A stretch of 64,000 nt of DNA from assembly GCA_017551515.1 (NCBI GenBank), contig JAFZLK010000022.1:12532-76531 (forward strand), read 5' to 3'. The notes below the pieces were generated by a model. The model was not told the DNA's origin. It saw only the letters and a program-made list of their open reading frames with translations, and made no database searches. Below, piece after piece: positions 8,417 through 45,185 of this stretch. The stretch comes from Bacteroidales bacterium. Lineage in GTDB: Bacteria > Bacteroidota > Bacteroidia > Bacteroidales > ML635J-15. The position numbers and the translations under genes are program-made. The stretch's first letter is position 1; each line of letters opens with the position of its first letter.

Positions 8417-8537
8417 ACAGAAACTCAGAAACCTAGAAACACAGAAACCCAGAAACTTAGAAACTTAGAAACTTAGAAACTTAGAAACGCCGCAGGCATA
8501 GAAACTTAGAAACACAGAAACCAAGAAACTCATAGAA
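8417..8537 (+). repeat. Tandem 8-bp NNAGAAAC array with an embedded GCC-GCA-GGC mini-hairpin, ending at the next start codon
   Basis: acagaaac tcagaaac ctagaaac acagaaac ccagaaac ttagaaac x4 gccgcaggc atagaaac ... Confidence 0.9.
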
Positions 8538-9002
8538 ATGAAAAAATTATCAATCATACTAATCGTCATAATGGCTTTCACCACAATATCGTGCAAGGAA
8601 ACCCCGAAGACAGGTGGCGGTGAATACGGAATCGACAATCCCATTTCAGCCGACAATGTGGACGACTACACAAAGGCTAGTGATGGAATGCCAAAGATGG
8701 TATTCTCCGAAACAGAATACAACTTCGGCACAGTGATTCAAGGCGAAAAGGTGACGCACAAGTTCAAGTTTACAAACACTGGAGATGGAAACCTAGTGAT
8801 TTCTAGTGTAAAGCCATCGTGCGGATGCACATCTCCCAAATGGACGCGTGAACCCGTTAGACCCGGCGAAGAAGGATATGTGGAACTAACTTTCGACAGT
8901 TCCAACAAGAACGGAATGCAAAACAAGAATGTGCGCATCTCCGCCAATACCGACCCAAACGAACATGTACTATATATTAGGTGCGATGTCGTTGCAAAAT
9001 AG
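8538..9002 (+). CDS. DUF1573 domain lipoprotein
   Basis: Lipobox TISC; FKFTNTG..LVI..V.PSCGCT; conserved position between nusB and yajC. Confidence 0.88.
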   Translation: MKKLSIILIVIMAFTTISCKETPKTGGGEYGIDNPISADNVDDYTKASDGMPKMVFSETEYNFGTVIQGEKVTHKFKFTNTGDGNLVISSVKPSCGCTSPKWTREPVRPGEEGYVELTFDSSNKNGMQNKNVRISANTDPNEHVLYIRCDVVAK

Positions 9003-9025
9003 TTAACTAATTTAAAATCATTTAT

Positions 9026-9385
9026 ATGCAAAACATGTTATTAATTTTATTACAGGACGCAGCACAGGAAGCTCCGAAGTCGAACATCTGGATGAATGTA
9101 ATTTTCTGGGTACTGCTAATCGCAGTAATCTATTTCTTCATGATTAGACCAGCATCGAAGCGCAACAAGGAAGCACAAAAGTTCAAAGAAAGCCTCAAGA
9201 AGGGCAGCAAGGTAATAACCGCAGGCGGTGTTTACGGAATCATCGATGAACTCAGCGACACATACGTGCTTCTCGAAATTGCAAACGGCGTGAAAATCAA
9301 GATTGACAAGAACTCAATCGTAAGCTTCACCGAAGCCGAAAGCAAAGATGACAAGTCGGGCAACGAAGCATCCGAAAAGAAATAG
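9026..9385 (+). CDS. yajC: Preprotein translocase subunit YajC
   Basis: TM segment then YFFMIRP, LKKGSKVITAGGVYG. Confidence 0.95.
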   Translation: MQNMLLILLQDAAQEAPKSNIWMNVIFWVLLIAVIYFFMIRPASKRNKEAQKFKESLKKGSKVITAGGVYGIIDELSDTYVLLEIANGVKIKIDKNSIVSFTEAESKDDKSGNEASEKK

Positions 9386-9406
9386 TCCTAATAATCACAT
9401 CTTTGG

Positions 9407-10408
9407 ATGACAGAACAGCAGGAACCAAATAAGAAAGGGAATCCCGTTGTAAAGGTGGTCAATAACAGAAATTTTCTGGTATTCCTTGTTTTTGTTGTCC
9501 TGTCATTCTTCCTTTGGTTCCTCAACTACCTCAACAAGAACCTCACCAGCGACATAACCATAAAGTACAAGTTCAAAAACATCCCCAAGACAATAAGCAA
9601 CGAGAGTTCTCACAGCGGAGAACTTTTTGTAACGGCATCGGGACAAGGATACAACCTTTTTCAGGAAAGCTTCAAGACGAGGAATATTCCGCTAAGCATT
9701 GACCTTGAAACAAAAGCACAAGATAGCCGTCCATTGCTGAAATATGCTAGCAGTAAGGGAAAAGCCTACATCATAACCAACGACCTTAGACCGCTAATTA
9801 GGAAAAAAGTAGGTGAAAAAATAAACCTCGGCGATATAAAACCCGACACAATCTTCTTCGACATCATAAATGTAAAGGAGAAAAAAGTCCCCGTTGACAT
9901 TTCAAACATCACATACAAGCTTATTGACGGACAAAGAATAACTAAGACAATGATTGTCCCCGACTCTGTAAGCATCATCGGAAAAATAGCAAGCATCGAC
10001 AGCATTGTTTCAATTGGCGTTGAAGATGAGAACCTCGGTTTGCTAAAGGCAAAAAAACAATACAACCTTGTACTCGACATACCCGATGGCATAAGTGCAT
10101 CACAATCAATTGTAAGCATTTCGCACGAAATTGGAATGTTTACAAAGGCAAGCAAACGCATAAAAATAAAGGCAGTCAACTTTCCTCCAGAATATTCGTG
10201 CACGATTCTACCTCAATATGTTGATGTGAACTACCTTGTACAGCTTTCACACTACAACAATGTACAGGAATACAATTTCACAGCCACTGCCGATTATCAG
10301 AACGCTAAAGGTAACATCATCGAAATCAAAGTTCTGTCAAACGACGGCAAAGTACAAATACTACGAAGCGCACCCGAAACCTGCAGCTTTATACTCGAAA
10401 AGAAATGA
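9407..10408 (+). CDS. YbbR/CdaR-like membrane-anchored protein
   Basis: N-terminal TM (FLVFVVLSFFLWFL), PDTI/PDSV.I.G beta-rich repeats; synteny yajC-YbbR-coaE. Confidence 0.75.
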   Translation: MTEQQEPNKKGNPVVKVVNNRNFLVFLVFVVLSFFLWFLNYLNKNLTSDITIKYKFKNIPKTISNESSHSGELFVTASGQGYNLFQESFKTRNIPLSIDLETKAQDSRPLLKYASSKGKAYIITNDLRPLIRKKVGEKINLGDIKPDTIFFDIINVKEKKVPVDISNITYKLIDGQRITKTMIVPDSVSIIGKIASIDSIVSIGVEDENLGLLKAKKQYNLVLDIPDGISASQSIVSISHEIGMFTKASKRIKIKAVNFPPEYSCTILPQYVDVNYLVQLSHYNNVQEYNFTATADYQNAKGNIIEIKVLSNDGKVQILRSAPETCSFILEKK

Positions 10409-29386: not shown

Positions 29387-31819
29387 CTATCTTACCTTTG
29401 CACCAAGTTCCTTCTCGTAGAACATTATCAGCTTCTGCATTATCTTGTCGATCTGCTTGTCGGTCATTGTCTTTTCAGTATCCTCAAGCTCGAAGCTCAA
29501 AGCGTAGGAAATCTTGCCTGGCTCAAGGTTCTTGCCTTCGTAAACATCGAACAGTCCGACTTCAACAATGTGCTTAGGTTCGGTGCGTCTTGCGACTTCC
29601 TCGAGTTGTGCATAGGTCACCGATTTGTCAATAAGCAATGCAAGGTCGCGGCGAACGCGCGGGAACTTCGATATTGGCTGATACTCAATCTTGTGTGTCT
29701 TGGCGAACTTCAAAAGCACATCCCAGTTGATTTCTGCATAGAAAACATCCTGGTCTATGTCCATTTTCTTCAGCAAGTTCTTCGATACAACTGCAATGCG
29801 AGCAACTTCCTTGTCCTTCAGCTTGAACGACTGGAAAGTGCTGAACTTTTCGTCTGATGAAACCTCGAACTTCAAAGCCGACATGTCAATGCCGATTTTC
29901 TTCAGCACTGCAGCCACGCCTGACTTCAGCATGAAGTAGTCGGTTGGATTGTCCTTAAGGTTCCAGCTCAGCGGATTGCGCTTTCCTGTAATCCACATTC
30001 CGAGATACTGAGTTTCGCTGTATGCGGTAATGTCCGAAACCTGCTTTTCTGCATTATAATAATAGGTGCGACCAAACTCGAAGAACTTCAAGTCGCCATT
30101 GCGATAGTTGAGATTTGCCTTGATGCTGTTCAATCCACCATAAAGCAACGATGGACGCATAACATTCAAATCACGGCTCAACGGATTGTAAATCTTTACT
30201 ATGCGGTTTGCGTATTCGCTGTTTTCAGCAATGTCGTCAGCAGAAATCATCGAAAGACACATAATTTCGGTGTAGCCAATACCTGTGAGCACATCTGAAA
30301 CAAGATTCATCATCTTCTGCGGTTCCGGCTTTTCAGGATAGTTGATGCTGAACGAAATATGATTCGGAACCTCTATGTTGTTGTATCCGTAAATTCTCAT
30401 AATATCCTCAACCACATCAGCTTCGCCTGTGACATCCACCCTGTAGGTTGGGATTTCAAGTTTCAAATCACGACCTTTGTCCTCCAAAATCTTCATATCG
30501 AGCAAGCCGATGATTTCGCGAACGCGGTCTTCGGGGATTTCCTTGCCGATAAGTGCGTTGCCACGGTCAATGTTGTAATCAACGATTGCCGGTTCTATTG
30601 GATTTGGATAAACATCAACAATTTCCGATGCGATACGACCGCAGCCCATTTCAACAATCAGGCTTGCAGCACGGCGCAAAGCGTAAGGCACCATGTTGAT
30701 GTCAACTCCGCGCTCGAAATGGAACGAAGCATCGGTCTTAAGTCCGTGAAACTTCGATGTCTTGCGGATTGAAACCGGGCTGAAATATGCAGCCTCGATG
30801 AAAACATTCTTTGTTTCGTTTGAGATTCCCGACTTTTCGCCACCGAACACGCCACCTATGCACATCGGCTCTTCGGCGTTGCAAATCATAAGGTCGTTTG
30901 CAGACAACTTGCGCTCAACGCCATCGAGAGTAACGAAAGGTGTTCCTTCTGCAACATTCTTCACGATAATCTGCTTGCCAGTAATCTTGTCGGCATCAAA
31001 TGTATGAAGCGGATTTCCAGTTTCGTATAACACGAAATTGCTGACATCCACGATGTTGTTTATTGGATTCAAGCCGACCGATTTAAGACGGTTTTTCAGC
31101 CATTCTGGCGATTCCTGCACCTTCACATCGGTAAGGCAGATGCCCATATAACGGCGACAAGCATCGGTATTTTCGATTTTTACATCGATTTTTATCTCAT
31201 TTTTCGAATTTTCGGTGATTTCAGCCTTTGGAATGTTGTATTTTATTCCCTTCACGGCTGCCACATCGCGGGCTGCGCCAATGTGCGAAGCACCATCTAT
31301 GCGGTTTGGTGTGATGTCGATTTCGATAGCGGTATCGTTTTCAACATTGAAATATTCTGCTGCAGGCGTACCCACCTTTGCATCTGCTGGCAGAACCATT
31401 ATTCCGTCGTGCGAAGTGCCGATATTCATTTCGTCCTCTGCGCAAATCATACCTTCCGATGGTTCACCGCGAAGTTTCGACTTCTTGATTTCGAACACGC
31501 CGTCCTTTGAGTAAATCTTGGTGCCGATAGTAGCGACAACAACTTTTTGTCCCGCTGCCACATTTGGCGCACCGCACACGATATGCAAAGGTTCGTCACC
31601 GCCGACATTTACTGTAGTAACATGCAGATGGTCAGAATTTGGATGAGCCTCGCAGGTGAGTACTTCACCGATTACGAAACCTTTCAGTCCGCCAATTACA
31701 GACGAAACTTCTTCAGTTCCATCAACTTCGAGGCCAACGCTTGTTAGTATTGCTGCCAGTTCTTCCGGCGATTCGTCAAACGACACATAGTTCTTAAGCC
31801 AATTGTATGAAATCTTCAT
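29387..31819 (-). CDS. pheT: Phenylalanyl-tRNA synthetase beta subunit
   Basis: MKISYNWLK, IVCGAPNV, ITPNR.D, FERGVD, SKFP.VRRDLAL. Confidence 0.98.
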   Translation of the reverse strand: MKISYNWLKNYVSFDESPEELAAILTSVGLEVDGTEEVSSVIGGLKGFVIGEVLTCEAHPNSDHLHVTTVNVGGDEPLHIVCGAPNVAAGQKVVVATIGTKIYSKDGVFEIKKSKLRGEPSEGMICAEDEMNIGTSHDGIMVLPADAKVGTPAAEYFNVENDTAIEIDITPNRIDGASHIGAARDVAAVKGIKYNIPKAEITENSKNEIKIDVKIENTDACRRYMGICLTDVKVQESPEWLKNRLKSVGLNPINNIVDVSNFVLYETGNPLHTFDADKITGKQIIVKNVAEGTPFVTLDGVERKLSANDLMICNAEEPMCIGGVFGGEKSGISNETKNVFIEAAYFSPVSIRKTSKFHGLKTDASFHFERGVDINMVPYALRRAASLIVEMGCGRIASEIVDVYPNPIEPAIVDYNIDRGNALIGKEIPEDRVREIIGLLDMKILEDKGRDLKLEIPTYRVDVTGEADVVEDIMRIYGYNNIEVPNHISFSINYPEKPEPQKMMNLVSDVLTGIGYTEIMCLSMISADDIAENSEYANRIVKIYNPLSRDLNVMRPSLLYGGLNSIKANLNYRNGDLKFFEFGRTYYYNAEKQVSDITAYSETQYLGMWITGKRNPLSWNLKDNPTDYFMLKSGVAAVLKKIGIDMSALKFEVSSDEKFSTFQSFKLKDKEVARIAVVSKNLLKKMDIDQDVFYAEINWDVLLKFAKTHKIEYQPISKFPRVRRDLALLIDKSVTYAQLEEVARRTEPKHIVEVGLFDVYEGKNLEPGKISYALSFELEDTEKTMTDKQIDKIMQKLIMFYEKELGAKVR

Positions 31820-31945
31820 CGTAAATCAATTTTGGGTTGCAAAGATACAATATTATTTACGATTTTGGATTTACGATTTTGGATTTTTTAATAGAGAGGT
31901 TAGTGACGAACTAGAAAGAATTTCTTTCGAGTTGCCTCTGCATTG

Positions 31946-32475
31946 TCAATCTGTTATCACTTCCCAGAAACCGCCCTTGTCCGGACCAACACGACGGATA
32001 TATTTATCTCGCATTACATTAATGTTACTACCAACAGCAGTATAGCTTAAACCTAAAACAGTAGCAATTTCCGACTTTGATATATACGGGTCACGGGTCT
32101 TCTAACATCAATTTTAATATTGACATTCTGTTTTCTGTCAACTTAACACCACTTGACTTCGATTTTTCTATAATGCTACCTATCAATTCAGCACGATTTT
32201 CTGGTAATTTTTCTGGTAACTTTTCTGTCACCTTACTTTTCCCATTATTTGACTTAGTTGTCGAAACGCCCAATACATCTACTTTATTGTCAGTTGTTTC
32301 TGTTCGGTTTCTGTTCGGTTTCTGCTACTTTCTGTTCGGTTTCTGTCACCTTGGGCACTGTTATTTTCAAGATGAAATCATCTGTATGGTACTTGGGTTC
32401 TTTGACGCCATTGGCTATCAGCTCCCGACACATACGGTCAACACCTTCGCCGTACTCTTTCAATGCATTAGTCAT
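31946..32475 (-). pseudogene. 5'-truncated, doubly frameshifted ATP-binding (RecG-C/HATPase_c_4-like) + winged-HTH gene remnant
   Basis: KEYGEGVDRM fragment. Removing a 7-bp tandem duplication (ACGGGTC x2, 32086-32099) restores EDPYISKSEIATVLGLSYTAV...IRRVGPDKGGFWEV*. An 11-bp repeat (CGAACAGAAAC on -) near 32297-32325 causes another shift. Confidence 0.75.
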
Positions 32476-32866
32476 TTTTCAAAAACATATGAAGTTTTTC
32501 AAGGATAATTTTATCAGCTGGCAACCAATTTACATTGTATAATTCATCTTTTGATAACCATTTTGCTGCTTCATGTTCTTTCAAAATAAGACTCCCACTT
32601 TCAACACGACATAAAAAGCAATGCATTGTAAGATGAAATTTAGGATAATCCCATTCTACAGTATCAATAAATCTTTCAACAACAATTTTTGTATCCAATT
32701 CTTCCAAAATCTCACGTTTAAGAGCTTCTTCTGGAGTTTCTCCAACTTCAATTTTTCCGCCAGGAAATTCCCAATAGTCTTTCCAATCTCCGTAACCACG
32801 TTGAGTTGCGAAAATACAACCATCGGAATCGTGGATTATGGCTGCTGCAACTTCGATTTTTTTCAT
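32468..32866 (-). CDS. MutT/NudG-like Nudix hydrolase
   Basis: WEFPGGKIEVGETPEEALKREILEEL Nudix box; WLPAD. Confidence 0.93.
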   Translation of the reverse strand: MKKIEVAAAIIHDSDGCIFATQRGYGDWKDYWEFPGGKIEVGETPEEALKREILEELDTKIVVERFIDTVEWDYPKFHLTMHCFLCRVESGSLILKEHEAAKWLSKDELYNVNWLPADKIILEKLHMFLKND

Positions 32867-34938
32867 AATACTTGTAGCCCTAATGACTTCAGATAGTTAT
32901 ATGTTCCATCATAAAATTCAGATCTTCTTGTATTGTCATCATTATTTCCTTCTGGAACACAGATTACCATTCCTTGACGAGCACGAGTAAGAAGAACTCT
33001 GTATGCATTCAGCTGATAAACTTTTCGTTCTTCTTTATTAATACGATTCCATCGATTACCACCATTAAACTCATAAAAATCCCATTTCCCATCATTATAT
33101 CGCAAGTCGCCATCCCATACCAAACAAGTCCAATCTAGCTCTAAACCTTGAATATCAAATTCACTTGCAGCATCTTCTAAAAATAATGAAGAACGCACAT
33201 CATCAATATCGTCAAGAAACCAATGAACAGTATCAGGCTTACACCTTACATCTATGGCTAACGGTTTCAATCTATATGCTTTTGAAGAAACTAACATTCC
33301 GTATCGTTCGCTACCCCTTGCTTTGTTCCTCAACCATTGTTTTGCAACATTAATATCCCTTGTTAATACAATAGGATAGCGATCTTTTATTTTTGCATAA
33401 TTTTCTATAACTTTGTTAATCTCACAATCTAGCAAATGGTGTATCATATTCGACAAACTCTCAGCTCTAAAAGAACGCATAGAAACGGACAAATGCAAAT
33501 CATCCGAATACAATACATTAGGATTTTTAGAAAGCAACTCTTCAATCTTACCTTCTGCATATTCTTTCGCCGTTAGTTGATTAGATATATATACTCGCCA
33601 TTCTGGGAAGGTTTCATTAATTGCTCTAATCCACTCGCCAATGCCAGCTTCACCAGTATTTATTTCCTGTCCACCACCGACAAGACAAACTATTACTGCC
33701 CAATCCTTTCGTTGATCCAATGACCATATCAGGAATTCTCCTTCTGACATTGGAAAATCTTGTATTCCCTTCTTACGCTTTAGCCAACTCGAAATATGCT
33801 CTTGATCCCAAGAACGTTGTGCTTCGTCAAAAATGGCAATATTCTCTACTTCTGCATATCCAGCCGTTTTATCCTTAAGTTCTTTTTGCGGATCAATTTC
33901 TATCTTTTTTCCGACGATTGGTGTGCGCAATTTTTGAAGCATATTATCACGATAGCGGTGAATTATTTGTATAAATTGACCTACTTCTCGACGAGCATCA
34001 GTTATATTGTATTTTTCTCCTTGTTCATTCTTCTGACGCTTTCGATCTCTTGCCAACGCCTCTGTCAGAACACTTACCAACGGACCATTACCAGACAAAT
34101 ACACTGCTAAATCTGGATTTTCTCCATCTTTGTGAGACAATTGCTTAATAGCAACATTCAAACCTACCAAAGTTTTTCCTGCTCCAGGCACTCCTGTTAC
34201 AAAACAAATGCTTTTACCCCCTCGAGATTTTGTTTCTCGAATAACTTTCAACACATAATCCGTAGTAATATCAAGTTGCTTTCCCTCTGCCTCATGACGA
34301 GTTATCTCCTCTACACTATGCTGCGAATACAATGCACTTGCCGCCTCAATAATAGTGGGCGAAGGAGCATATCTACTTCTTACCCAATCGCGCATGGACA
34401 CATCTCCATTATAATTCGCAATATCTTGTGATAAAACCTGTTTCATAATAAATGACAGACCTTCGGTATTTGTCATTAATGGGTCGTATATACCATCATT
34501 GTAATGAGACAACTTCAGCTCAGTCGAACAATCTTTAGCATTTGTCGCTATCAATATAGGAACGATATATCTATCAGAACTACCTTGATGGAAATTTTTC
34601 AAATCAAGAGCATAATCCATTACTTGGTCTCTGTCTTGACGAATATAATCTTCTTGTCCTGCTTTAAATTCAAGCACAAAAACTCTTTCTCGAAGCAAAA
34701 CAACGACATCTATTCTCTTTCCTAAACGCGGTATAGTATATTCAAATATTATCCATCCTTCTTCATTTTTGTATTGAGACAAAACATTCTTTAAAAGCGT
34801 TATTTCTTCTTTCCATGCGAACTTTTGTGTATCACCGGTATCGTACTCATCATTTCCTGCCAATATACCAAATATCTCAAGTTCGTTTTGTGAAAGGAAT
34901 TCTTTTATTGAATTATGATAAAAACAGCGTTCGTTCAT
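32863..34938 (-). CDS. DUF2075 (Schlafen group 3-like) nuclease-helicase
   Basis: N-terminal EY...RID......LEFK (PD-(D/E)XK-like); Walker A GVPGAGKT; Walker B IFDEAQR; QGLELD; YRVLLTRAR.G; overlaps the Nudix start by 4 nt. Confidence 0.85.
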   Translation of the reverse strand: MNERCFYHNSIKEFLSQNELEIFGILAGNDEYDTGDTQKFAWKEEITLLKNVLSQYKNEEGWIIFEYTIPRLGKRIDVVVLLRERVFVLEFKAGQEDYIRQDRDQVMDYALDLKNFHQGSSDRYIVPILIATNAKDCSTELKLSHYNDGIYDPLMTNTEGLSFIMKQVLSQDIANYNGDVSMRDWVRSRYAPSPTIIEAASALYSQHSVEEITRHEAEGKQLDITTDYVLKVIRETKSRGGKSICFVTGVPGAGKTLVGLNVAIKQLSHKDGENPDLAVYLSGNGPLVSVLTEALARDRKRQKNEQGEKYNITDARREVGQFIQIIHRYRDNMLQKLRTPIVGKKIEIDPQKELKDKTAGYAEVENIAIFDEAQRSWDQEHISSWLKRKKGIQDFPMSEGEFLIWSLDQRKDWAVIVCLVGGGQEINTGEAGIGEWIRAINETFPEWRVYISNQLTAKEYAEGKIEELLSKNPNVLYSDDLHLSVSMRSFRAESLSNMIHHLLDCEINKVIENYAKIKDRYPIVLTRDINVAKQWLRNKARGSERYGMLVSSKAYRLKPLAIDVRCKPDTVHWFLDDIDDVRSSLFLEDAASEFDIQGLELDWTCLVWDGDLRYNDGKWDFYEFNGGNRWNRINKEERKVYQLNAYRVLLTRARQGMVICVPEGNNDDNTRRSEFYDGTYNYLKSLGLQVL

Positions 34939-35036
34939 AAATTTGAAACAGATGGTCATTATTACATGACACAAATATACCTTAATTTGTATAAAAATAA
35001 GACTTCCAGTTGAACATACTTATCAACATTTATTTT

Positions 35037-35087
35037 CTAATACATCTCCATCGCATATTCAACCGCCTTATTCAGCAGCGAGTTGAA
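35037..35087 (-). repeat. Copy B of the DUF2461 gene 3' end
   Basis: Encodes FNSLLNKAVEYAMEMY*, identical in peptide to the end of the gene at 37762. Confidence 0.92.
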
Positions 35088-35094
35088 TATAATA

Positions 35095-35177
35095 TCGCAA
35101 CCTATCTTTCACCTACTGCATTTCTCAAATCACCGAGTCGCAGTATTAACTTCTGCAAAACAAAAAACCACTTATTC
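35095..35177. repeat. Degenerate direct repeat of 36394-36477 flanking the DUF1016 gene
   Basis: In register at an offset of 1300 bp; last 27 nt TTCTGCAAAACAAAAAACCACTTATTC vs TTTTGCAAAACAATAAACCACTTATTC. Confidence 0.6.
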
Positions 35178-36196
35178 TTTAGTATCAACAATTTTTTCCA
35201 CAATCTGCTTCAATTGATCTTTATTAGGCAAGTATAATTCGTATTTTGAAACAAAAAGATTTGTATTAATGCCATAAGTTGCATATTCCACGAGCAAATC
35301 GTCTTTATAGTGCGAAAGAATAATGCCTATCGGCGGATTGTCGTCCGGCATATTTTCCTCCGTGGCAAAATAGCCTAAATACATATTCATCTGTCCAATA
35401 TCTTCGTGCTGCACAGCATCTCGTTTCAAATCAATTAGGACAAAACATTTCAAAATACGATGATAAAAGACCAAATCGCAATGGTAGTGCCTATTGTTCA
35501 CTGTTATAGGATATTGCCGTTTTACAAATGTGAAGCCTTTGCCCATTTCCAAAAGGAACATCTGCAAATGGTCTATTATACGTTGTTCGAGTTCTGTTTC
35601 CGAAAAATGGTAATCCTCAGGAATTCCTAGAAACTCCAATGTATAACTGTCCTTAACAACATCTTCTGGCTTATGAATCGTAACACCATCCTTGGCCAAA
35701 GCAAGAACTCCATCCTTGTCCTTGCTTGATGCTAGACGCAGATACAATGCGGAATTCATTTGACGTTTTAGTGTTCTCACATCCCATTTTTGTGCAATAC
35801 ACTCTTTTTCATAAAAACTACGCTCCAATGGGTCGTCTGCTTGCATCAATGTGCAAATATGAGTCCAGCTTAAATTGTCAGTCAGTGACTGACAATTAGG
35901 ATAAAACAGATAAAACTTTCTCATATTCACCAAATTAGGACGACTAAACCGCGTCCAAAGCGTAATGTCAATTGCTTGGACAATTCCGAGAGCGTAGATG
36001 TTCCGTATGCAACTTTTGCTTGTCCACCTTGTTCGTATTCCACTATATACTTTCCAATCTGCCAATAGGTTTCGGTCATTGTTGCATTAATGCTTATAGC
36101 CAAACGCTTACGAGCATTTGATATCACTTCCGAAACGCTGTCAATCAAATGCTGAACTGTATTGTATTCTGATATTTTATTCTCATTGTTTTCCAT
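35172..36196 (-). pseudogene. YhcG/DUF1016 PD-(D/E)XK nuclease-domain gene with a 1-bp frameshift
   Basis: N-part: YWQIGKYIVEYEQGG..YG..LS..L...FGRG. C-part: FSRPNL.NMRKFY, LSWTH, KDSYTLEFL, FLLEMGKGF, DLVFYHRILKCFVLIDLK, GQMNMY. One T is missing in GGTTT(T)AGT at 35946-35948. Confidence 0.85.
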
Positions 36197-36568
36197 CAAA
36201 ACATGTCTTTGTTTATCTTTATTAGAGATTCAATTGCAAACATAATTATAAAAAGAATATAATACAACTAAAGTTGGGTTTTATTTTAAACAAAAGAATG
36301 CAAGGTGAATACTCTACAAAACAAATGCTTATCCAAGAAAACTAACAAATCCTTCTACCATAACCTCCTATTTATTCCTCACAAAATTGACTATCGCACG
36401 CCCCCATTTTCCTAACTGTGTTTCGCAAATTACCTCGCCTTAGGATTTGTTTTTGCAAAACAATAAACCACTTATTCCATTTTTTAGTACTGCAAAATAA
36501 CCACTTATTCCGAATTTGGAAGAAGGAAATATTATTCAAATCACTACAACACAATCAATTAGCAAAAA

Positions 36569-36649
36569 TCAATACATCTCCATAGCATATTCAACCGCCT
36601 TATTCAGCAGCGAGTTGAATTCGTAGGTGCGGCGGAGGTCGGAAACAAC
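36569..36649 (-). repeat. Copy A of the DUF2461 gene 3' end
   Basis: Encodes VVSDLRRTYEFNSLLNKAVEYAMEMY*; differs from 37762-37842 only at synonymous sites and the stop codon. Confidence 0.95.
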
Positions 36650-36879
36650 TAATATTTCTTGTATTTTTTTTCTTGAAATTCTCGCCAAACTTCTTCTGCC
36701 AGATATTTGTCACTTCGACAATGCAAGTCTGCTACTCCATCATCTATCATTGAGGATGTTTCCGAACTATAGTACATGTCTGTTGCATCGTTGAGTGATA
36801 CACCATACATCTCACTGATGCATACAATTATTCTTGCACACTGGGCACTTTTCATTATTTGCTTACCTTCCTCGCTCAT
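36649..36879 (-). CDS. Small DUF3791-like protein
   Basis: A...YYSSET...I.DGVADLHCRSDKYLAEE; ATGA overlap with the DUF3990 gene. Confidence 0.7.
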   Translation of the reverse strand: MSEEGKQIMKSAQCARIIVCISEMYGVSLNDATDMYYSSETSSMIDDGVADLHCRSDKYLAEEVWREFQEKKYKKY

Positions 36880-37346
36880 AACTGCTTACTTTCAATATAT
36901 ACAAGACACTCTTGCAACATATGTTCAGAACGAATGCAATATTGTATGTTTGGTTTCTCGAACATAAGTAGTCCAAGCGCTACTTCCTGCGAAATCTCTC
37001 CATTAAAATATCTATCAAGAGTGATAATAACCTTATCATTGGCAATGCCGCCAATTACCAAGTCAAAATCTCCAAACTCATTACCTTCACGGCATTGCGC
37101 CACAAAATCAAGCCATTCCTTGTCGTATGCTTCAAAATATTTTATATTCCATTGCTCTTCACTATACGAGAACTCATATACATTGAGCCACGCAGACTGT
37201 CCTCTTCTTTTAAATCGTTGTGCATATCTGACTGCCTGTTCATCAATTGATGTCAGATAAAATCCACGTCCGAAATCCAAATATTTGCGCGAATGCTGTG
37301 TGTCGGGATGAGACACAATCATATTTGAAGAATGGTATAGTTTCAC
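36876..37346 (-). CDS. DUF3990 protein (ADP-ribosyltransferase-like motifs)
   Basis: LYHSS, DFGRGFYLT, EWLDFV..CR, DLVIGGIAND, QYC. Confidence 0.85.
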   Translation of the reverse strand: MKLYHSSNMIVSHPDTQHSRKYLDFGRGFYLTSIDEQAVRYAQRFKRRGQSAWLNVYEFSYSEEQWNIKYFEAYDKEWLDFVAQCREGNEFGDFDLVIGGIANDKVIITLDRYFNGEISQEVALGLLMFEKPNIQYCIRSEHMLQECLVYIESKQL

Positions 37347-37570
37347 GCGTCAAGCACCCCTTTCTCCTTCATGTAGTCTGTCAAGTCTTCCATTAGATAG
37401 CGAGAACTGAATGTGTGCAATACATCGTATGAAGGAACAATGTACCCATATAGTATGCCTGATTTTTTTAGCCGCCTATATATTTCTTGCTGAGACAAAT
37501 TTAGTGTCAGCGAAAGTTTTCCTATGCAATATGTAACAAACTCCAATGTCTTTTTATCCATATTCGTCAT
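37343..37570 (-). CDS. DUF3791 protein
   Basis: LEFVTYCI, YIVPSYDVLHTFS..YL.ED. Confidence 0.82.
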   Translation of the reverse strand: MTNMDKKTLEFVTYCIGKLSLTLNLSQQEIYRRLKKSGILYGYIVPSYDVLHTFSSRYLMEDLTDYMKEKGVLDA

Positions 37571-37761
37571 TATACAGTTACAAAATTATCGCAACATCTT
37601 TACTTTGCAAACTTACATAAAAATTGTCGATTTTTATGCCAGTATAATAAAGAAAATTTCATTGCTGATAGTCAGTGTATTACATTTTTCTTTAGAGGAA
37701 AGATAAACAAAACATCCATATTATAACGCCTAAATCTCAAACAATTTGTCGAAAAAACATT

Positions 37762-38424
37762 CTAATACATCTCCATCGCGTACTCCACAGCCTTATTCAG
37801 CAATGAGTTGAACTCGTAGGTGCGGCGGAGGTCGGAAACGACATGGTCCACAAAACTATTGTCGAGGATGTCGGATTCATTAATTGGCTTCTCAATGAGG
37901 AAACTTTTAAGTTTGTAGTATTCGGCAAATTCGTCATCGGCACTGAAGCCAGCAGGAATCTTTTTCAGCGCATCTTCCCACGATAGCGAAAAGCCCTTGG
38001 CACTGCGTATGGCCTTGTCGAAATTCTTGCCGTTGAGCATTATCTCCTCACGCACACTCTTCACAATACGAGGTTCGGGACACCACAATCCTGCACAGAT
38101 AAAATAACTCACATTAGGCTCAATATGAATATAATAGCCTGAGTATCCGCTCTTTTTTCCGTGCGGACAGACAAATGTGCCTATGTGTTGCTTGTAGGGT
38201 GTCTTGTCGTGCGAAAAACGCAGGTCGCGGTATATACGATAGGTGCAGTCCTTCACCTGCAAGCCCGCCACCGACTTGTCGAAACTTGCGATGCCATCGA
38301 TCAGTTTCTGCGAAAAATCATTATGTACGGCAAGCATTTCCTTGTACTGCTGCTTGTGAGCATCGAACCACGGCTTGTTGTTGTTCTGCTGCAATTGCTT
38401 GAAAAAATCCAAAACTCGTTTCAT
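37762..38424 (-). CDS. DUF2461 (TIGR02453-like) protein
   Basis: FF..L..NNNK.WF..HK, YRIYRDLRFS.DKTPYK, GYYIHIEP; start at ATG 38424. Confidence 0.9.
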   Translation of the reverse strand: MKRVLDFFKQLQQNNNKPWFDAHKQQYKEMLAVHNDFSQKLIDGIASFDKSVAGLQVKDCTYRIYRDLRFSHDKTPYKQHIGTFVCPHGKKSGYSGYYIHIEPNVSYFICAGLWCPEPRIVKSVREEIMLNGKNFDKAIRSAKGFSLSWEDALKKIPAGFSADDEFAEYYKLKSFLIEKPINESDILDNSFVDHVVSDLRRTYEFNSLLNKAVEYAMEMY

Positions 38425-38467
38425 GGTCAAAAATTTTGCGAAAGATAAGAAAAATTTCAAAATTTTT

Positions 38468-38760
38468 GGTTTCTGTGCCTTCGGCGTTTCTATGTTTCTA
38501 TGGGCTGCGCCCGTTTCTGCGCTACGCTGTTTCTGGGTTTCTATGCCTGCGGCGTTTATAAGTTTCTCGCTGCGCTGTTTCTCAGTTTGAATGTTTCAAA
38601 ACAATATCAAACAACCAGAAACTCAGAAACTCAGAAACCCAGAAACCCAGAAACCAGAAACTCAGAAACTCAGAAACCCAGAAACCCAGAAACCAGAAAC
38701 TCAGAAACCCAGAAACCCAGAAATCCTCAAATCTTCAAATTTTCAAATCTTCAAATCTTT
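38468..38760. repeat. Bipartite intergenic repeat: GTTTCT arm (38468-38590), about 14 CAGAAAC(Y) units (38616-38724), then CAAAT-type repeats
   Basis: Directly visible; higher-order 39-bp period in the CAGAAAC array; GCC-GAA-GGC and GCC-GCA-GGC mini-hairpins on the - strand. Confidence 0.9.
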
Positions 38761-38840
38761 GAATTTTTTGAATCCTCATTGTGACAAATAATTATTACAT
38801 TTGCCAAAAATTTTTAAAACACATATTAAAATAAAATATC

Positions 38841-40121
38841 ATGGTTAGAGATGAACAAATTTTCGACCTTATAAAGAAGGAAAGAGAAAGACAGATGAAG
38901 GGCATCGAGCTCATCGCATCGGAGAACTTTGTAAGCGACCAGGTAATGGAAGCTATGGGTTCGGTAATGACAAACAAGTACGCTGAGGGTTATCCCGGAA
39001 AGCGTTACTACGGTGGTTGCGAAGTTGTTGACCAGAGCGAAACCCTCGCTATCGAAAGATTGAAAAAGATCTTCGGTGCTTGCTGGGCAAATGTACAGCC
39101 GCACTCGGGCGCACAGGCAAACATGGCAGTATTCCTTGCATGCCTCAACGTTGGTGACACCTTCCTCGGACTTAACCTCGCACACGGCGGACACCTTTCA
39201 CACGGTTCACCAGTAAATATGTCGGGTATCAACTACAAGGCATTGGAATACAATGTAAAGGAAAGCGATGGTCGCGTTGACTACGACCAGCTCGAACGCG
39301 TTGCTCGCGAAAACAAGCCGAAACTCATCATCGCTGGTGCATCTGCTTACAGCCGCGAATGGGATTACGCTCGCATCCGCAAGGTTGCCGATGAAATTGG
39401 TGCAATCTTTATGGTTGATATGTCGCACCCAGCAGGTCTTATTGCTGCAGGTTTGCTCGACAACCCAGTAAAATACGCTCACATCGTAACAACAACAACA
39501 CACAAGACCCTTCGTGGTCCGCGTGGTGGTGTCATCATGATGGGACAGGACTTCCCGAATCCTTGGGGCAAGAAGACTCCAAAGGGCGAAGTAAAGATGA
39601 TGTCGGCATTGCTCGACTCTGCAGTATTCCCAGGTTGCCAGGGTGGTCCGTTGGAGCATGTAATCGCTGCTAAGGCTGTTGCTTTCGGCGAAGCTCTCAC
39701 TCCAGAATTCAAGGAATACCAGAAGCAAGTTAAGAAGAATGCTGCTGCTTTGGCTGATGCATTCATGGCAAAGGGCTACAAGATTGTCAGCGGTGGTACC
39801 GACAACCACTCTATGCTTGTTGACCTTCGCACCAAGTTCCCGGAACTCACAGGTAAGGTTGCAGAAAAGGCACTTGTTGCTGCCGACATCACAACCAACA
39901 AGAACATGGTTCCTTTCGACACCCGCAGCCCATTCCAGACTTCAGGTTTGCGTTTCGGAACTCCGGCTATCACAACCCGTGGCGTAAAGGAAGACAAGAT
40001 GGCTGTTATCGTTGACCTTATCGACCGCGTTCTCTGCGACCCCGAAAACGAAAAGGTTATTGCAGAAGTTCGTGCCGAAGTTAACAAGATGATGGCAAAC
40101 TACCCGCTTTTCGCATGGTAG
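38841..40121 (+). CDS. glyA: Serine hydroxymethyltransferase
   Basis: [44 protein letters not shown]. Confidence 0.98.
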
Positions 40122-43529: not shown

Positions 43530-43624
43530 ATTCCGCCAAAATACTTTTCATATTTCAGCGGAATCTATACTTCAAAACACACATTCCGCTGAAAGTTTAT
43601 ATAGATTTCAGCGGAATCTTTTTA
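43530..43624. repeat. 95-bp direct repeat (downstream copy) containing two 35-bp palindromic units
   Basis: ATTCCGCCAAAA-N11-TTTCAGCGGAAT-N18-ATTCCGCTGAAA-N11-TTTCAGCGGAAT; near-identical to 45091-45185. Confidence 0.92.
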
Positions 43625-43628
43625 GTGT

Positions 43629-45047
43629 TTATACAAACAAATCACTTAATATCAAATTGTTATCTAAAATTTGCGAATTAGAATTAGGCGTAATACCCTG
43701 CGTTGTTATCATTGCAATAAAAACCGTTTTGCTGGTTTCGTTTTCTTCGATAAAAGTTTCAATCTTATTGCTGAGATTTTTCTCATAGGCGGCAGTTATG
43801 GTGTATTGCTTGTTGCTCCATTTCATTTCGCAAAGCGTTATGGAATCATCGTTTCTGTCGATTACAAGGTCAATTTGCGCACCGCCATCTTGCTTGCTAC
43901 TGCGCCACGAATATACATTTGTAATTACTCCCGAAATGCCAAGTCCTTGCTTTATCTGCCTTACATGCGCCAGACACAATTGTTCAAACGCATATCCAAT
44001 CCAAGCATTACGCAATGAAGACCGCATATTCTTCGACCAGAATTCTTCTTCATTAACCTTGCGTTCCCATATGAAATTCAAGTAAAACAATGTGTAAAAA
44101 TCAACAAGTTGGAACAAAGCGGTCTTCTTTTTCTTGTCAAATGGCGTATAGCAACGAATGAAACCGCAGTTTTCCAAGTCAGCCAAAGCCTTCGAGAATG
44201 TTCCCCCGTCTGAGATTTTCAATCCTTTGACAATCTCGTCACGCGAAAGGCCTTTTTTCTTGCTTCCAAGCAGTTTAACTATACCAATATATAGTTTGGA
44301 ATTTGTAAATAGCGATGCATAAAGGTTGTTGAATTCGCCACGGAGTACGCCATTCTGCCTGAAAAATAGAAAATCCACATTTTTTGCAAGACTTAGCGAC
44401 GGGTCGAGCAGGCTTAGATAATATGGTACGCCACCGAAAATCATATAACATTCGGCAATCATCATTCTGCCCCAGCGGAATTTCCGTGATTTCAAATAAA
44501 GTTCCGTTTCCTTGAGCGTGAACGGCTCGAGACGAATGTGCAATGTAATACGATTGTGCAGTCCGCCACGATTGTTTATCAGTTTGTCTGTCATCCAAGA
44601 TGTTGCCGAACCGCAAACCACAAGCATGATATCTTTGCGAGCCGATGCCCATCCGTTCCAGAAATGCTCAAAAGCCGAGATAAAAACGGCATCCGACTTG
44701 TCCATCCACGGCAGTTCGTCAAGGAATACGACCTTTTTGCGCGACTTAGGCAATGCGCCAAGAAACCTTTTCAGTTCGCCAAACGCATCCTGCCACGAAG
44801 TAATTTCTGCTACATCGGTTAGACCTTGTTCGCGCAATGCGTTGGCAAAGCCTACCAACTGCTCGCGTCGCGAAGCATTCATCATCGCTGCGTACTGGAA
44901 ATCAATTTTCCGAAAAGCATTCCTTACCAAAAATGTCTTTCCTACACGCCTACGACCATAAACAGCGACAAACTCCGACTGCTTTGATTCATAGTAGCGA
45001 GCCAACTGTCGCAATTCGTATTCCCGACCTACAATTTTTACGTTCAT
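43629..45047 (-). CDS. AAA family ATPase (archaeal ATPase_2-type) with wHTH and C-terminal PD-(D/E)XK-like domain
   Basis: IVGRE.E, YGRRRVGKT, FLDELPW, CGSATSWM, GGVPYYL, QIDLVIDR...CEMK. Confidence 0.9.
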   Translation of the reverse strand: MNVKIVGREYELRQLARYYESKQSEFVAVYGRRRVGKTFLVRNAFRKIDFQYAAMMNASRREQLVGFANALREQGLTDVAEITSWQDAFGELKRFLGALPKSRKKVVFLDELPWMDKSDAVFISAFEHFWNGWASARKDIMLVVCGSATSWMTDKLINNRGGLHNRITLHIRLEPFTLKETELYLKSRKFRWGRMMIAECYMIFGGVPYYLSLLDPSLSLAKNVDFLFFRQNGVLRGEFNNLYASLFTNSKLYIGIVKLLGSKKKGLSRDEIVKGLKISDGGTFSKALADLENCGFIRCYTPFDKKKKTALFQLVDFYTLFYLNFIWERKVNEEEFWSKNMRSSLRNAWIGYAFEQLCLAHVRQIKQGLGISGVITNVYSWRSSKQDGGAQIDLVIDRNDDSITLCEMKWSNKQYTITAAYEKNLSNKIETFIEENETSKTVFIAMITTQGITPNSNSQILDNNLILSDLFV

Positions 45048-45090: not shown

Positions 45091-45185
45091 ATTCCGCCAA
45101 AACATTTTTCATATTTCAGCGGAATCTATACTCTAAAATATACATTCCGCTGAAAGTTTATATATATTTCAGCGGAATCTTTTTA
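45091..45185. repeat. 95-bp direct repeat (upstream copy), just upstream of a TACCTTTG promoter box (45068-45075, - strand)
   Basis: Same sequence and architecture as 43530-43624. Confidence 0.92.

What the first reader, a model, noticed from the sequence alone, without database searches (positions are those of the whole stretch)
35037..37842. Three synonymous-only variants of the DUF2461 gene 3' end separate stacked accessory cassettes
Seen: the last 26 codons plus stop of the intact DUF2461 gene (37762-37842) recur at 36569-36649, and the last 16 codons plus stop recur at 35037-35087. Copy A differs from the intact gene at 9 codons, all synonymous, plus TAG/TGA, with no amino-acid change. 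Reading on the - strand the order is: gene end, DUF3791/3990 triad, copy A, DUF1016, copy B, DUF2075-Nudix. The copies differ in length (81 vs 51 bp) and no integrase lies in the patch. Inference: synonymous-only divergence means each copy was once a working gene end under selection. Incoming DNA would have repeatedly replaced the gene's 3' end and pushed the old end and its cargo downstream. This would be a polar, chronologically ordered cassette stack anchored on a protein-coding gene, with the newest cassette nearest the gene.
Basis: partly seen in the sequence, partly recalled or inferred. Interest (0 to 1): 0.8.

Follow-up and report, generated by a model that had tools for sequence, protein, structure and literature searches.

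The report
Old gene ends mark stacked defence cassettes
In a rumen Bacteroidales genome, a small island of candidate anti-phage genes has grown just behind a conserved gene, and each addition left the gene's previous tail behind as a silent relic, which is a known way for islands to grow, seen here without any integrase.

Summary
The last 81 nt of the DUF2461 gene recur at 36569-36649 (copy A) and its last 51 nt at 35037-35087 (copy B). All coding differences are synonymous: 9 of 9 for A and 6 of 6 for B.

Unitigs from four sequencing runs bridge all three junctions, so this is not a misassembly.

The copies separate complete candidate defence systems: PDC-M13, PDC-S02 and PDC-S41 with PDC-S07. 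The island is AT-rich and lies between DUF2461 and pheT.

Relatives show an empty site, different cargo, and intact genes followed by exactly what follows A or B here. Each copy was therefore once a working gene end.

I find no integrase in or near the island, and only two Xer-like recombinases in the whole genome.

The best reading is sequential end-displacement by homology-anchored additive recombination. This is the process described for T6SS, Rhs and CDI arrays, and it resembles integrase-less (CIME-type) tandem islands at ssrA.

Strict chronological order is not shown. A and B are nearly identical. The junction in front of copy B recurs at the same base in three species, and in degenerate form at a fourth site. 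The DUF1016 frameshift is a consensus error.

A similar relic lies behind dnaK in two relatives.

Verdict: a new variant of a known kind, of moderate interest.

The parts
37762..38424 (-). DUF2461 (TIGR02453) gene, 220 aa. This is the conserved anchor gene. Its last 81 nt (37762-37842) are the working end, called E here.
   Evidence: Pfam PF09365 at 3e-65. TIGR02453 at 9e-58. Same 663-nt length and MKRVLDFF start in 9 relatives. GC 46%.
37571..37761 (-). X1, the intergenic leader of cassette 1. It holds a roughly 100-nt promoter-like dispersed repeat. Its 3' part is shared with G024.
   Evidence: 87% identity over 287 nt with G024, running into DUF3791.
36649..37570 (-). Cassette 1: DUF3791 (37343-37570), DUF3990 (36876-37346) and orf76 (36649-36879). 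Together they form a complete three-gene candidate defence system, PDC-M13 A/B/C. The orf76 stop codon abuts copy A.
   Evidence: Pfam. PADLOC PDC-M13A at 2e-25, M13B at 6e-52 and M13C at 3e-26. A paralogous triad lies on contig C30. GC 36%.
36569..36649 (-). Copy A: a relic of the last 26 codons plus stop (TGA) of DUF2461.
   Evidence: Bridged by a unitig in run X3.
36200..36568 (-). The S-R-T module behind copy A. S is a 57-nt spacer (36512-36568). R is two units of a 33-nt tandem repeat carrying GGAATAAGTGG (36468-36511). T is a leader (36200-36467) ending in a Bacteroidetes-type promoter motif.
   Evidence: D3, D6; period 33, 3.6 copies in G036. The motif is confined to this locus in the genome: 3 of 5 GAATAAGTGG sites. 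The promoter motif TAnnTTTG is recalled from memory, not tested.
35172..36199 (-). DUF1016/YhcG PD-(D/E)XK nuclease gene (PADLOC PDC-S02). It is intact in the reads. The window lacks one A after 35945.
   Evidence: Pfam. PADLOC at 7e-109. The extra A is at 100% of depth in 4 of 4 runs. With it the frame is open for 342 aa.
35088..35177 (-). R1-T90: one R unit (overlapping the DUF1016 stop) plus the first 90 nt or so of a T element. It ends at the junction GTTGCGATATTATA|TTCAAC with copy B.
   Evidence: (D3, 76% identical to 36415-36477). The same junction occurs in G036 and on G035 contig C7.
35037..35087 (-). Copy B: a relic of the last 16 codons plus stop (TAG) of DUF2461.
   Evidence: Bridged by a unitig in run X4.
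32468..35036 (-). Y leader (34975-35036), DUF2075/Schlafen-type helicase (32863-34974, PDC-S41) and Nudix (32468-32866, PDC-S07). This is the oldest cargo and is shared with G008, G020 and G024.
31820..32467 (-). Probable remnant of a Fic/HTH gene that is intact in G008, G020 and G024, followed by the pheT upstream region.
   Evidence: 44-nt match to the end of the 345-aa Fic/HTH ORF. Frames are closed. The evidence is weak.
29387..31819 (-). pheT, the conserved gene on the far flank of the island.
   Evidence: Pfam. 97% aa identity in 5 relatives and in L049.

Best explanation
The DUF2461-pheT interval is a hotspot where candidate anti-phage systems accumulate by sequential end-displacement.

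Incoming DNA from a related strain or species carries the 3' part of DUF2461 together with whatever lay behind it in the donor. It pairs with the resident gene through that homology. The other end is joined additively, either by an illegitimate join at microhomology or by a single crossover of a circularised fragment, rather than by a second homologous crossover.

The gene then ends in the incoming copy, which encodes the same protein with different synonymous codons. The resident end and its cargo are pushed towards pheT as a silent relic.

Later homologous exchange between relics, working ends and the conserved S-R-T module shuffles and deletes cassettes. No dedicated integrase is involved.

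Shown:
- The relics are real and differ only at synonymous sites.
- Each relic keeps the downstream partner of a working end found elsewhere.
- The site is polymorphic, and an empty state exists.
- No integrase is found nearby.

Inferred:
- The recombination pathway.
- The route by which DNA enters the cell.
- The order of events.
For: 1. Differences are synonymous only: 9/9 for A and 6/6 for B, chance about 1e-6 to 1e-5. The G035 relic next to pheT has 2 non-synonymous changes, so relics do decay once silent.
2. B-Y-DUF2075 is collinear with G008's working end-Y-DUF2075, starting exactly at the first base of B (92.5%). A-S-R-T matches the working end plus S-R in G020, G026, G036, L050, L051, L056 and L059, which is 7 of 11 evaluable loci.
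3. The stop codon travels with the downstream partner. TGA or TAA goes with S. TAG goes with Y, in both G008 and copy B.
4. There is an empty site in L049, with 196 nt between DUF2461 and pheT. Cargo is otherwise variable: an EcoRII-type restriction-modification system in G036, and Dcm/GHKL/McrB-like/Vsr in G026.
5. The island has 34-38% GC against 46-50% in the flanking genes.
6. The own genome has only two PF00589 hits, both on other contigs, and no PF00239. Five relatives each have the same two Xer-like genes plus 0-2 others, none on the contigs or near the coordinates of the DUF2461 loci.
7. The same signature occurs at other anchor genes. A relic of the last 73 nt or so of dnaK lies 4.9 kb (G024) and 10.5 kb (G008) downstream of dnaK, after cargo in which Pfam found no integrase (8 ORFs scanned in G008, 2 of 7 in G024). 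Duplicated ends of Fic and AbiH genes also occur in the own genome.
8. The junction in front of B could have formed at microhomology (ATTCAA), as judged from aligned T elements. This point is an inference.
9. There is precedent for this mechanism (PMC5361080, passages read).
Against: - The T90|E2 junction is base-identical in three species with different neighbours, and is present in degenerate form at a fourth site. Meanwhile the attached E2 sequences differ almost only at synonymous sites (5 synonymous, 1 non-synonymous, plus a TAG/TGA swap between window B and G035 C7). One illegitimate event followed by neutral decay does not predict this. It requires repeated crossovers inside the 51 nt, or a site-specific process.
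- A and B share private variants. The donor of the DUF1016 unit was therefore a very close relative, or the two copies were homogenised.
- The left junction of A shows at most 1 nt of microhomology.
- No donor allele identical to A, B or the present end was found among 12 intact alleles.
- The route of DNA entry is unknown. Homology-facilitated illegitimate recombination has been shown experimentally only in naturally transformable bacteria (as cited in PMC5361080).
- G024 gained cargo at the stop codon without any duplicate.
Confidence: 0.55

Rival explanations
1. Site-specific (or Campbell-type) integration of small circular cassettes that lack an integrase, like CIMEs.

In this reading the portable unit is E2-S-R-T(leader)-cargo-R-T90. 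Its closed junction T90|E2-S-R acts as an attP-like site. The GGAATAAGTGG repeats are binding sites on both arms. A recombinase supplied in trans, possibly one of the two Xer-like enzymes or an enzyme of a visiting element, crosses over at the start of the last 16 codons. Each integration brings a replacement gene end and leaves the old one as attR.
For: - The junction is fixed at the same base in window copy B, G036 and G035 C7, and in degenerate form next to pheT in G035.
- The E2 attached to that junction carries allele-like synonymous variation and the stop codon of its downstream partner, as expected if the junction is re-formed with different resident ends.
- The full T90-E2-S-R-T arrangement exists between two cargo genes on G035 C7.
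- G036 has E-S-R4-T90-E2, which looks like a unit whose cargo was deleted between the R-T repeats that flank it.
- GGAATAAGTGG units lie on both sides of E2, about 90 nt upstream and about 60-200 nt downstream.
- Tandem accretion of integrase-less elements at a gene's 3' end is established (PMC5704250 and PMC3146451, passages read).
Against: - No integrase lies in or near any of the 12 islands examined, and the own genome has only two Xer-like PF00589 genes and no PF00239.
- Copy A has a different left boundary: 81 nt, abutting the orf76 stop.
- The R repeats also stand directly upstream of AAA_14/DUF4143 genes, including in another family (G144) with no DUF2461 context. They may therefore be regulatory.
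- No dif-like or inverted-repeat core is conserved in E2. The 9-nt inverted repeat in copy B is absent from the other alleles.
- No joint that removes a cassette was seen in four runs. These were contigs only, which drop rare variants.
- The same kind of relic occurs at dnaK, which argues for a general process.
Confidence: 0.25
2. Local duplication made on insertion of a self-mobile single-gene cassette.

In this reading, DUF1016/YhcG genes, like the AAA_14-DUF4143 and ATPase_2 genes of this genome, insert on their own and duplicate 40-150 nt of the target. A and B would be the two halves of one such target duplication rather than ends of different origin.
For: - A and B are 49/50 identical and share two variants private to them.
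- 5 of 10 DUF1016 ORFs in the genome are bracketed by direct repeats of 39-91 nt, against 51 of 1558 other ORFs of 250 aa or more (Fisher p = 1e-5).
- 31 of the 56 bracketed ORFs belong to four families: AAA_14/DUF4143, two ATPase_2 groups and DUF1016.
- The repeats look target-derived. Examples are the dnaK stop plus terminator (58 nt), with a single-copy empty site in G010.
Against: - The DNA between A and B starts with its own last five codons, its own stop (GCT...TGA against GCG...TAG) and the S-R module that follows working gene ends elsewhere. The insert therefore came from a DUF2461 context.
- Most bracketing repeats are 91-96% identical, like diverged alleles, not fresh duplications.
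- The 95-nt repeats around the ATPase_2 gene occur as pairs in six relatives, so they may be conserved parts of the unit.
- This reading does not explain copy A against the present end (11 differences).
- Tandem paralogues can mimic bracketing, and I did not control for that.
Confidence: 0.12
3. Strain-chimeric misassembly of a metagenome-assembled genome. In this reading the three ends belong to three co-occurring strains.
For: - The genome is a 119-contig assembly.
- A and B share 35 identical bases, which breaks k=31 unitigs exactly there.
- The window does contain one consensus error, the missing A at 35945.
Against: - Unitigs with no mismatches bridge each copy with both flanks: B in X4, A in X3 and the intact end in X1, X2 and X4.
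- Depth is even across all segments in all four runs.
- The 35-nt shared core is shorter than ordinary read lengths.
- All four runs are from one study and two may be the source, so independence is limited.
Confidence: 0.02

Closest known systems
Sequential displacement arrays of polymorphic-toxin loci: T6SS effector-immunity clusters of Vibrio cholerae, and Rhs 'C-terminal displacement' and CDI orphan arrays as cited there (PMC5361080, passages read)
   Same: - A conserved upstream gene serves as the homologous anchor.
- The incoming module replaces the 3' part, and the old 3' end plus its partner genes are shifted downstream.
- The result is a polar array.
- No integrase is involved.
- The proposed mechanism is homology-facilitated illegitimate recombination, followed by ordinary homologous exchange of whole arrays.
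   Different: - Here the displaced end encodes the same peptide, with synonymous changes only. It is not a new toxin tip.
- The anchor is a conserved gene of unknown function (DUF2461; dnaK at a second site), not a toxin gene.
- The cargo is candidate anti-phage systems rather than immunity genes.
- A conserved S-R-T module with 33-nt repeats accompanies the ends.
Tandem accretion of integrative elements and their integrase-less derivatives (CIMEs) at the 3' end of a target gene, for example the Dehalococcoides ssrA genomic islands (PMC3146451, passages read; review PMC5704250, passages read)
   Same: - Several islands lie in tandem downstream of one single-copy gene.
- They are separated by direct repeats of that gene's 3' end.
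- Some units lack integration genes.
- Content varies between strains.
   Different: - Those systems have an identified integrase (dsiB, or ICE/IME integrases), a short and constant repeat (20 bp) and a fixed insertion point.
- Here no integrase is found in 12 islands.
- The relic lengths are 81, 51 and 25 nt.
- The units are only 1.2-1.5 kb.
- The target is a protein-coding end whose reading frame is restored.
Prophages that integrate in the 3' end of a protein gene and bring a substitute end, such as e14 and phage 21 in E. coli icd (recalled from memory; my paper search on this failed on syntax and was not repeated)
   Same: The element supplies an alternative 3' end that keeps the protein. 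The old end remains as a pseudogene fragment at the far junction.
   Different: Those are full prophages with their own integrase and a single insertion. Here there are small cassettes with no phage genes, no integrase and repeated stacking.
Core-gene-flanked defence hotspots, such as the core defence hotspots of Pseudomonas aeruginosa (PMC10250203; seen in the search listing and abstract only)
   Same: A fixed chromosomal interval between conserved genes holds different defence systems in different strains, often without mobile-element genes.
   Different: As far as I saw, relic copies of the flanking gene's end that record successive additions are not part of that description. I did not read the full text.

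Membership tests
Sequential (C-terminal) displacement array | A conserved anchor gene has displaced copies of its own 3' end downstream, in the same orientation | tested here: met
   Three co-oriented copies, and only these three in the genome.
Sequential (C-terminal) displacement array | Each displaced end keeps the genes that followed it when it was the working end | tested here: met
   B-Y-DUF2075 equals G008's working end-Y-DUF2075. A-S-R-T equals the working end plus S-R in 7 of 11 loci.
Sequential (C-terminal) displacement array | The displaced ends encode different variable toxin tips paired with immunity genes | tested here: not met
   All three ends encode the identical peptide. The cargo is PDC-M13, PDC-S02, PDC-S41 and PDC-S07.
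Sequential (C-terminal) displacement array | Junctions are formed by illegitimate joining, so positions vary and show microhomology | tested here: inconclusive
   Two junction types occur in the window (81 and 51 nt). The 51-nt type recurs base-exactly in two other species. Microhomology is at most 1 nt at A and possibly 5-7 nt at B.
Site-specific accretion of ICE/IME/CIME at a gene's 3' end | [quoted passage not shown] | tested here: met
Site-specific accretion of ICE/IME/CIME at a gene's 3' end | A tyrosine or serine recombinase of matching specificity in one of the stacked elements or elsewhere in the genome | tested here: not met
   No such gene in the island. The own genome has two PF00589 hits on contigs C8 and C36 and no PF00239. 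None lies near the DUF2461 loci of five relatives. Other recombinase families were not searched.
Site-specific accretion of ICE/IME/CIME at a gene's 3' end | A constant crossover point and an identical core in all att copies | tested here: inconclusive
   Four of five relics start at the same base and one (A) starts 30 nt earlier. The longest run identical between the present end and B is 15 nt; between A and B it is 35 nt.
Site-specific accretion of ICE/IME/CIME at a gene's 3' end | An excised circular form and a restored empty site | not testable with these tools
   Only contigs of the runs could be laid, and they drop rare variants. No such joint is listed.
Integron | An intI integrase next to attI, and cassettes ending in attC sites that are imperfect inverted repeats | tested here: not met
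   No PF00589 on this contig. No conserved inverted repeat at cassette ends. The boundaries are direct repeats of coding sequence and of the R-T module.
Defence island / hotspot between core genes | A variable set of defence or candidate defence genes between conserved flanking genes | tested here: met
   PADLOC matches for all six cargo genes. Restriction-modification, Dcm/GHKL/Vsr and Fic cargo in relatives. An empty site exists. Whether the PDC candidates actually defend has not been tested.

The most novel reading that the evidence does not exclude
In this Bacteroidales genus, defence islands would grow on the 3' ends of core genes (DUF2461, dnaK) through an integrase-independent, integron-like cassette economy.

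Coding-neutral relic ends and the S-R-T module would act as reusable docking and excision sites. Complete defence cassettes could then be added, looped out as circles and lost without a scar, while the anchor gene stays intact.

The most abundant cargo would itself be the mobile agent. This cargo consists of single genes that pair an ATPase or N-terminal domain with a PD-(D/E)XK-type domain: DUF1016/YhcG, AAA_14-DUF4143 and ATPase_2-DUF234. These genes would insert with 40-150-nt flank duplications.
Probability: 0.15. Interest if true: 0.8.

Novelty: new variant of a known kind. Interest (0 to 1): 0.5.

Why it matters
How defence islands without mobile-element genes gain and lose systems is still poorly understood. 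Here the relics form a readable record. Each silent gene tail marks one addition, and each keeps the neighbour it had when it was still the working end.

If the process is general in Bacteroidales (a second anchor, dnaK, shows the same signature), then relic 3' ends of core genes could be used to do three things:
- find hotspots;
- delimit complete defence cassettes; the relics here frame PDC-M13 and PDC-S02 exactly;
- order acquisitions in rumen and gut bacteria that carry few integrases.

The direct repeats also predict scarless loss of single cassettes, which can be tested.

Tried and rejected
**Leads that went nowhere**
- Rfam on 32000-39000 (E up to 1) gave only a chance miRNA hit, so the S-R-T module is not a known RNA.
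- A scan of viral contigs for two GGAATAAGTG units found 38 stretches, all collagen-like coding repeats and unrelated.
- The sigma-70 promoter and terminator scan was no better than shuffles and does not suit Bacteroidetes.
- The X1 repeat is a generic promoter-like sequence, not an element end.
- DUF3990 homologues in 301 genomes of the order are at most 44% identical. The native context of cassette 1, and what follows orf76 elsewhere, could not be found.
- No intact allele among 12 equals A, B or the present end.
- Sliding comparison of the whole gene with 9 relatives shows no sharp breakpoint.
- A dif-like or Xer core in E2 was considered by eye only and rejected. The inverted repeat in copy B is not conserved.
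- The motif ATTCCGCTGAAA of the ATPase_2 repeats is specific to that locus, not a shared site.
- Read laying listed joints between 31878-31889 and 38502-38764 with sides of 21-35 nt in low-complexity repeats. I treat them as repeat artefacts. No joint removing a cassette was listed, but contigs cannot show rare forms.

**Papers**
- 'DUF2461' gave 4 irrelevant papers.
- 'DUF4143/AAA_14' gave nothing useful.
- I found nothing in print on DUF2461 as an insertion site (only).

Full report
**1. The observation**

The window holds three co-oriented copies of the 3' end of the DUF2461 gene, all on the minus strand.
- The working end is 37762-37842.
- Copy A is 36569-36649 (81 nt).
- Copy B is 35037-35087 (51 nt).

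All three translate to the same peptide. A differs from the working end at 9 codons, all synonymous, plus TAG to TGA. B differs from it at 6 codons, all synonymous. A and B differ at one codon and the stop. A random substitution in this stretch is synonymous with probability 0.21-0.28, so nine of nine has a chance of about 1e-6 to 1e-5. The whole genome (3.55 Mb, 119 contigs) holds only these three copies.

Unitigs of four public runs from one study were laid on the region. Two of the runs may be the source of the assembly.
- The unitigs break at the 35 bases that A and B share.
- One unitig bridges B with both flanks (X4, 34839-35279).
- One bridges A (X3, 36490-37373).
- One bridges the working end (X1, 36591-38566).
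- Depth is even across the island.

Misassembly is therefore unlikely. All four runs also have one more A after 35945. The DUF1016 frameshift in the window is a consensus error, and the gene is open for 342 aa.

**2. What lies between the copies**

| Segment | Content | PADLOC match |
|---|---|---|
| Gene to A | DUF3791, DUF3990 and a 76-aa ORF | PDC-M13 A, B and C, a complete three-gene candidate system |
| A to B | DUF1016/YhcG PD-(D/E)XK nuclease | PDC-S02 |
| Behind B | DUF2075/Schlafen-type helicase, then a Nudix gene | PDC-S41 and PDC-S07 |

Behind the Nudix gene lie a probable Fic/HTH remnant and pheT. The island has 34-38% GC, against 46% for DUF2461 and pheT and 50% for SHMT.

A is followed by a module that I call S-R-T:
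- S is a 57-nt spacer.
- R is two units of a 33-nt tandem repeat carrying GGAATAAGTGG.
- T is a leader of about 270 nt in front of DUF1016.

One more R unit and the first 90 nt or so of a T element (T90) follow DUF1016 and end exactly at B. In this genome the motif is confined to this locus.

**3. Relatives**

Eleven close loci could be evaluated. Six are species representatives of the genus and five are metagenome contigs, all with a DUF2461 at 91-95% aa identity.

| What follows the stop codon | Loci |
|---|---|
| pheT after 196 nt (empty site) | L049 |
| The same Y leader and DUF2075 as behind copy B | G008 |
| The S-R module as behind copy A, then different cargo | G020, G026, G036, L050, L051, L056, L059 |
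| The 3' part of X1, then DUF3791, as behind the present end | G024 |
| Core genes (rearranged) | G035 |

- In G008 the homology with the window starts at the first base of B and runs 2.2 kb at 92.5%.
- The cargo after S-R includes DUF2075-Nudix, Dcm/GHKL/McrB-like/Vsr, an EcoRII-type restriction-modification system, and an AAA_14/DUF4143 ATPase.
- G024 matches the window at 87% nt.

Each of the three ends in the window is thus attached to a neighbour that follows a working end in another genome.

**4. What does not fit a simple dated stack**

- A and B are almost the same sequence and share two variants (GCG, GTT) absent from the 12 intact alleles compared (14 other sequences in all). The present end differs from them by 6-9 of 51 bases, which is the usual distance between species alleles.
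- The junction T90|E2 (GTTGCGATATTATA|YTCAACTCGCTG) is base-identical in three places. These are the window, G036 (gene end, S, four R units, T90, then a 25-nt piece of the end) and G035 contig C7. It is also present in degenerate form next to pheT in G035.
- The G035 C7 copy sits in a two-unit array behind an oxaloacetate-decarboxylase-like gene, not behind DUF2461. Its E2 is unlike G035's own gene end and like the G024/G020 alleles, so the array was imported.
- The E2 sequences attached to this junction differ almost only at synonymous sites. Crossovers inside the 51 nt must therefore have happened more than once, or the junction is re-formed by a site-specific process.
- G024 gained cargo at the stop codon without any duplicate.
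- The gene-proximal X1-DUF3791 segment is shared with G024 at core-like divergence. This does not show that it is the newest.

**5. Recombinases**

No integrase-like gene lies in any of the islands examined. The own genome has two PF00589 matches, on other contigs (about 317-319 aa, Xer-like by size only), and no PF00239. Five relatives have the same two plus 0-2 others, none near their DUF2461 loci. Other recombinase families were not searched.

**6. Is it special to DUF2461?**

It is not. In the own genome, 56 of 1568 ORFs of 250 aa or more are bracketed by local direct repeats (35-200 nt, 82% identity or more). Of these 56, 31 belong to four families: AAA_14/DUF4143, two ATPase_2 groups and DUF1016. 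Five of 10 DUF1016 genes are bracketed (Fisher p = 1e-5).

The repeats are locus-specific and often include the end of the upstream gene:
- the last 90 nt of a Fic gene;
- an AbiH end;
- the dnaK stop plus terminator.

At dnaK, G010 has a single-copy empty site. G008 and G024 carry a decayed relic of the last 73 nt or so of dnaK, 10.5 and 4.9 kb downstream. It lies behind cargo that includes TIR, Dam, HerA-like, AbiEi/Eii and Fic genes in G008 and a PD-(D/E)XK gene in G024. Pfam found no integrase among the ORFs scanned, which were 8 in G008 and 2 of 7 in G024. A general recombination process fits this better than an enzyme dedicated to DUF2461. I did not control this survey for tandem paralogues. 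In addition, the 95-nt repeats around the window's ATPase_2 gene occur as pairs in six relatives, so some brackets may be conserved parts of a unit.

**7. Mechanism**

I favour sequential end-displacement (confidence 0.55). Homologous pairing in DUF2461 anchors incoming DNA, and the far end is joined additively. The incoming end becomes the working end, and the resident end with its cargo is pushed towards pheT. Later homologous exchange among ends, relics and S-R-T modules shuffles and deletes cassettes. G036 looks like a unit whose cargo was lost between the flanking R-T repeats.

The main rival (0.25) is integration of circular, integrase-less cassettes through an att-like T90-E2-S-R site by an enzyme supplied in trans. 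The fixed junction speaks for it. The missing enzyme, the second boundary type, and the presence of R repeats upstream of AAA_14 genes elsewhere speak against it.

A third reading (0.12) takes A and B as a target duplication made by a self-mobile DUF1016 cassette. Misassembly gets 0.02.

**8. Comparison with what is known**

The logic matches 'sequential displacement' of T6SS effector modules. It also matches C-terminal displacement in Rhs and CDI loci, where homology-facilitated illegitimate recombination was proposed (PMC5361080, passages read). It further resembles tandem, partly integrase-less islands separated by repeats of a gene's 3' end, such as the ssrA islands of Dehalococcoides (PMC3146451, passages read; CIME and accretion in PMC5704250, passages read).

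The differences here are:
- a displaced end that is coding-neutral;
- a conserved non-toxin anchor gene;
- cassettes that are complete candidate defence systems of only 1.2-1.5 kb;
- the S-R-T module;
- a genus with very few integrases.

I file it as a new variant of a known kind, with interest 0.5.

**9. Limits**

- All relatives are other species, about 10% diverged. No conspecific strain without one of the cassettes was available.
- The reads were available only as contigs.
- The search of earlier findings and paper supplements were closed.

Noticed in passing
window 35945-35946: The window lacks one A that all four laid runs show at 100% of depth. The apparent frameshift of the DUF1016 gene (35927-36199 and 35172-36065) is a consensus error of the assembly.
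   Followed up: yes
window 43530-43624 and 45091-45185: Two 95-nt direct repeats (92.6% identical) bracket an ATPase_2 gene (43629-45047, minus strand; PADLOC PDC-S27). Each repeat has two hairpin-like ATTCCGCTGAAA/TTTCAGCGGAAT pairs. Pairs of this repeat about 1.5 kb apart occur in six relatives.
   Followed up: partly
own genome G000, many contigs (for example C29:36174-37655, C73:4206-5756, C41:5338-7912, C49:4473-7596, C91:7123-8678): 56 of 1568 ORFs of 250 aa or more are bracketed by local direct repeats. 31 of them are AAA_14/DUF4143, ATPase_2 or DUF1016/YhcG genes, and 5 of 10 DUF1016 genes are bracketed (Fisher p = 1e-5). The repeats often include the end, terminator or promoter of the neighbouring gene. 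I did not control for tandem paralogues.
   Followed up: partly
L155 (G000:C29:34200-39000), L156 (G008:C29), L157 (G024:C3): dnaK is a second anchor. In the own genome a DUF1016 gene sits behind a duplicated dnaK stop plus terminator (58 nt), and G010 has the empty site. G008 and G024 carry a decayed relic of the last 73 nt or so of dnaK, 10.5 and 4.9 kb downstream, behind cargo that in G008 includes TIR, Dam, HerA-like, AbiEi/Eii and Fic genes. Pfam found no integrase among the ORFs scanned.
   Followed up: partly
L045 (G035:C7) 8270-10200: A two-unit array of the same kind lies at a locus that is not DUF2461, behind an oxaloacetate-decarboxylase-like gene. Its layout is T90 (E2 and most of S deleted), R4 and AAA_14/DUF4143, then T90, E2, S, R2, T and Dcm/GHKL genes. 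The second cargo equals what follows DUF2461 in G026.
   Followed up: partly
window 38477-38750 and 32297-32349: Dense 7-8-nt tandem repeats (CAGAAAC[C/T] and the inverse GTTTCTN) lie between DUF2461 and SHMT, and a related CAGAAACCGAA run lies near the Fic remnant. In G020, G008 and G002 the DUF2461 gene lies within about 250 nt of a contig start, so these repeats probably break assemblies.
   Followed up: no
window 37600-37710: A roughly 100-nt promoter-like sequence (...CATAAAAATCGACAATTTTTATGTAAGTTTGCAA) in the leader of cassette 1 has copies on own contigs C63, C8 and C97 and up to 7 copies in other genomes of the genus, some at contig ends.
   Followed up: partly
own genome C73:4206-5756 and C41:5338-7912: Next to DUF1016 genes lies an AbiH relic with an internal deletion (the first 41 nt or so fused to the last 36 nt or so), in front of a RhuM gene on C73. 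This is another sign of replacement by recombination in defence loci.
   Followed up: no
window 31748-31892 (just upstream of pheT): 145 nt just upstream of pheT are 98.6% identical to G026, far above the roughly 88% seen in neighbouring genes. This points to recent exchange or strong constraint.
   Followed up: no
L081 (G144:C5) 1497-1620 and L082 (G413:C54): Tandem units with GGAATAAGTG also occur in two other families of the order. In G144 they stand directly upstream of an AAA_14/DUF4143 gene, so the R repeats may belong to the control region of that gene family.
   Followed up: partly
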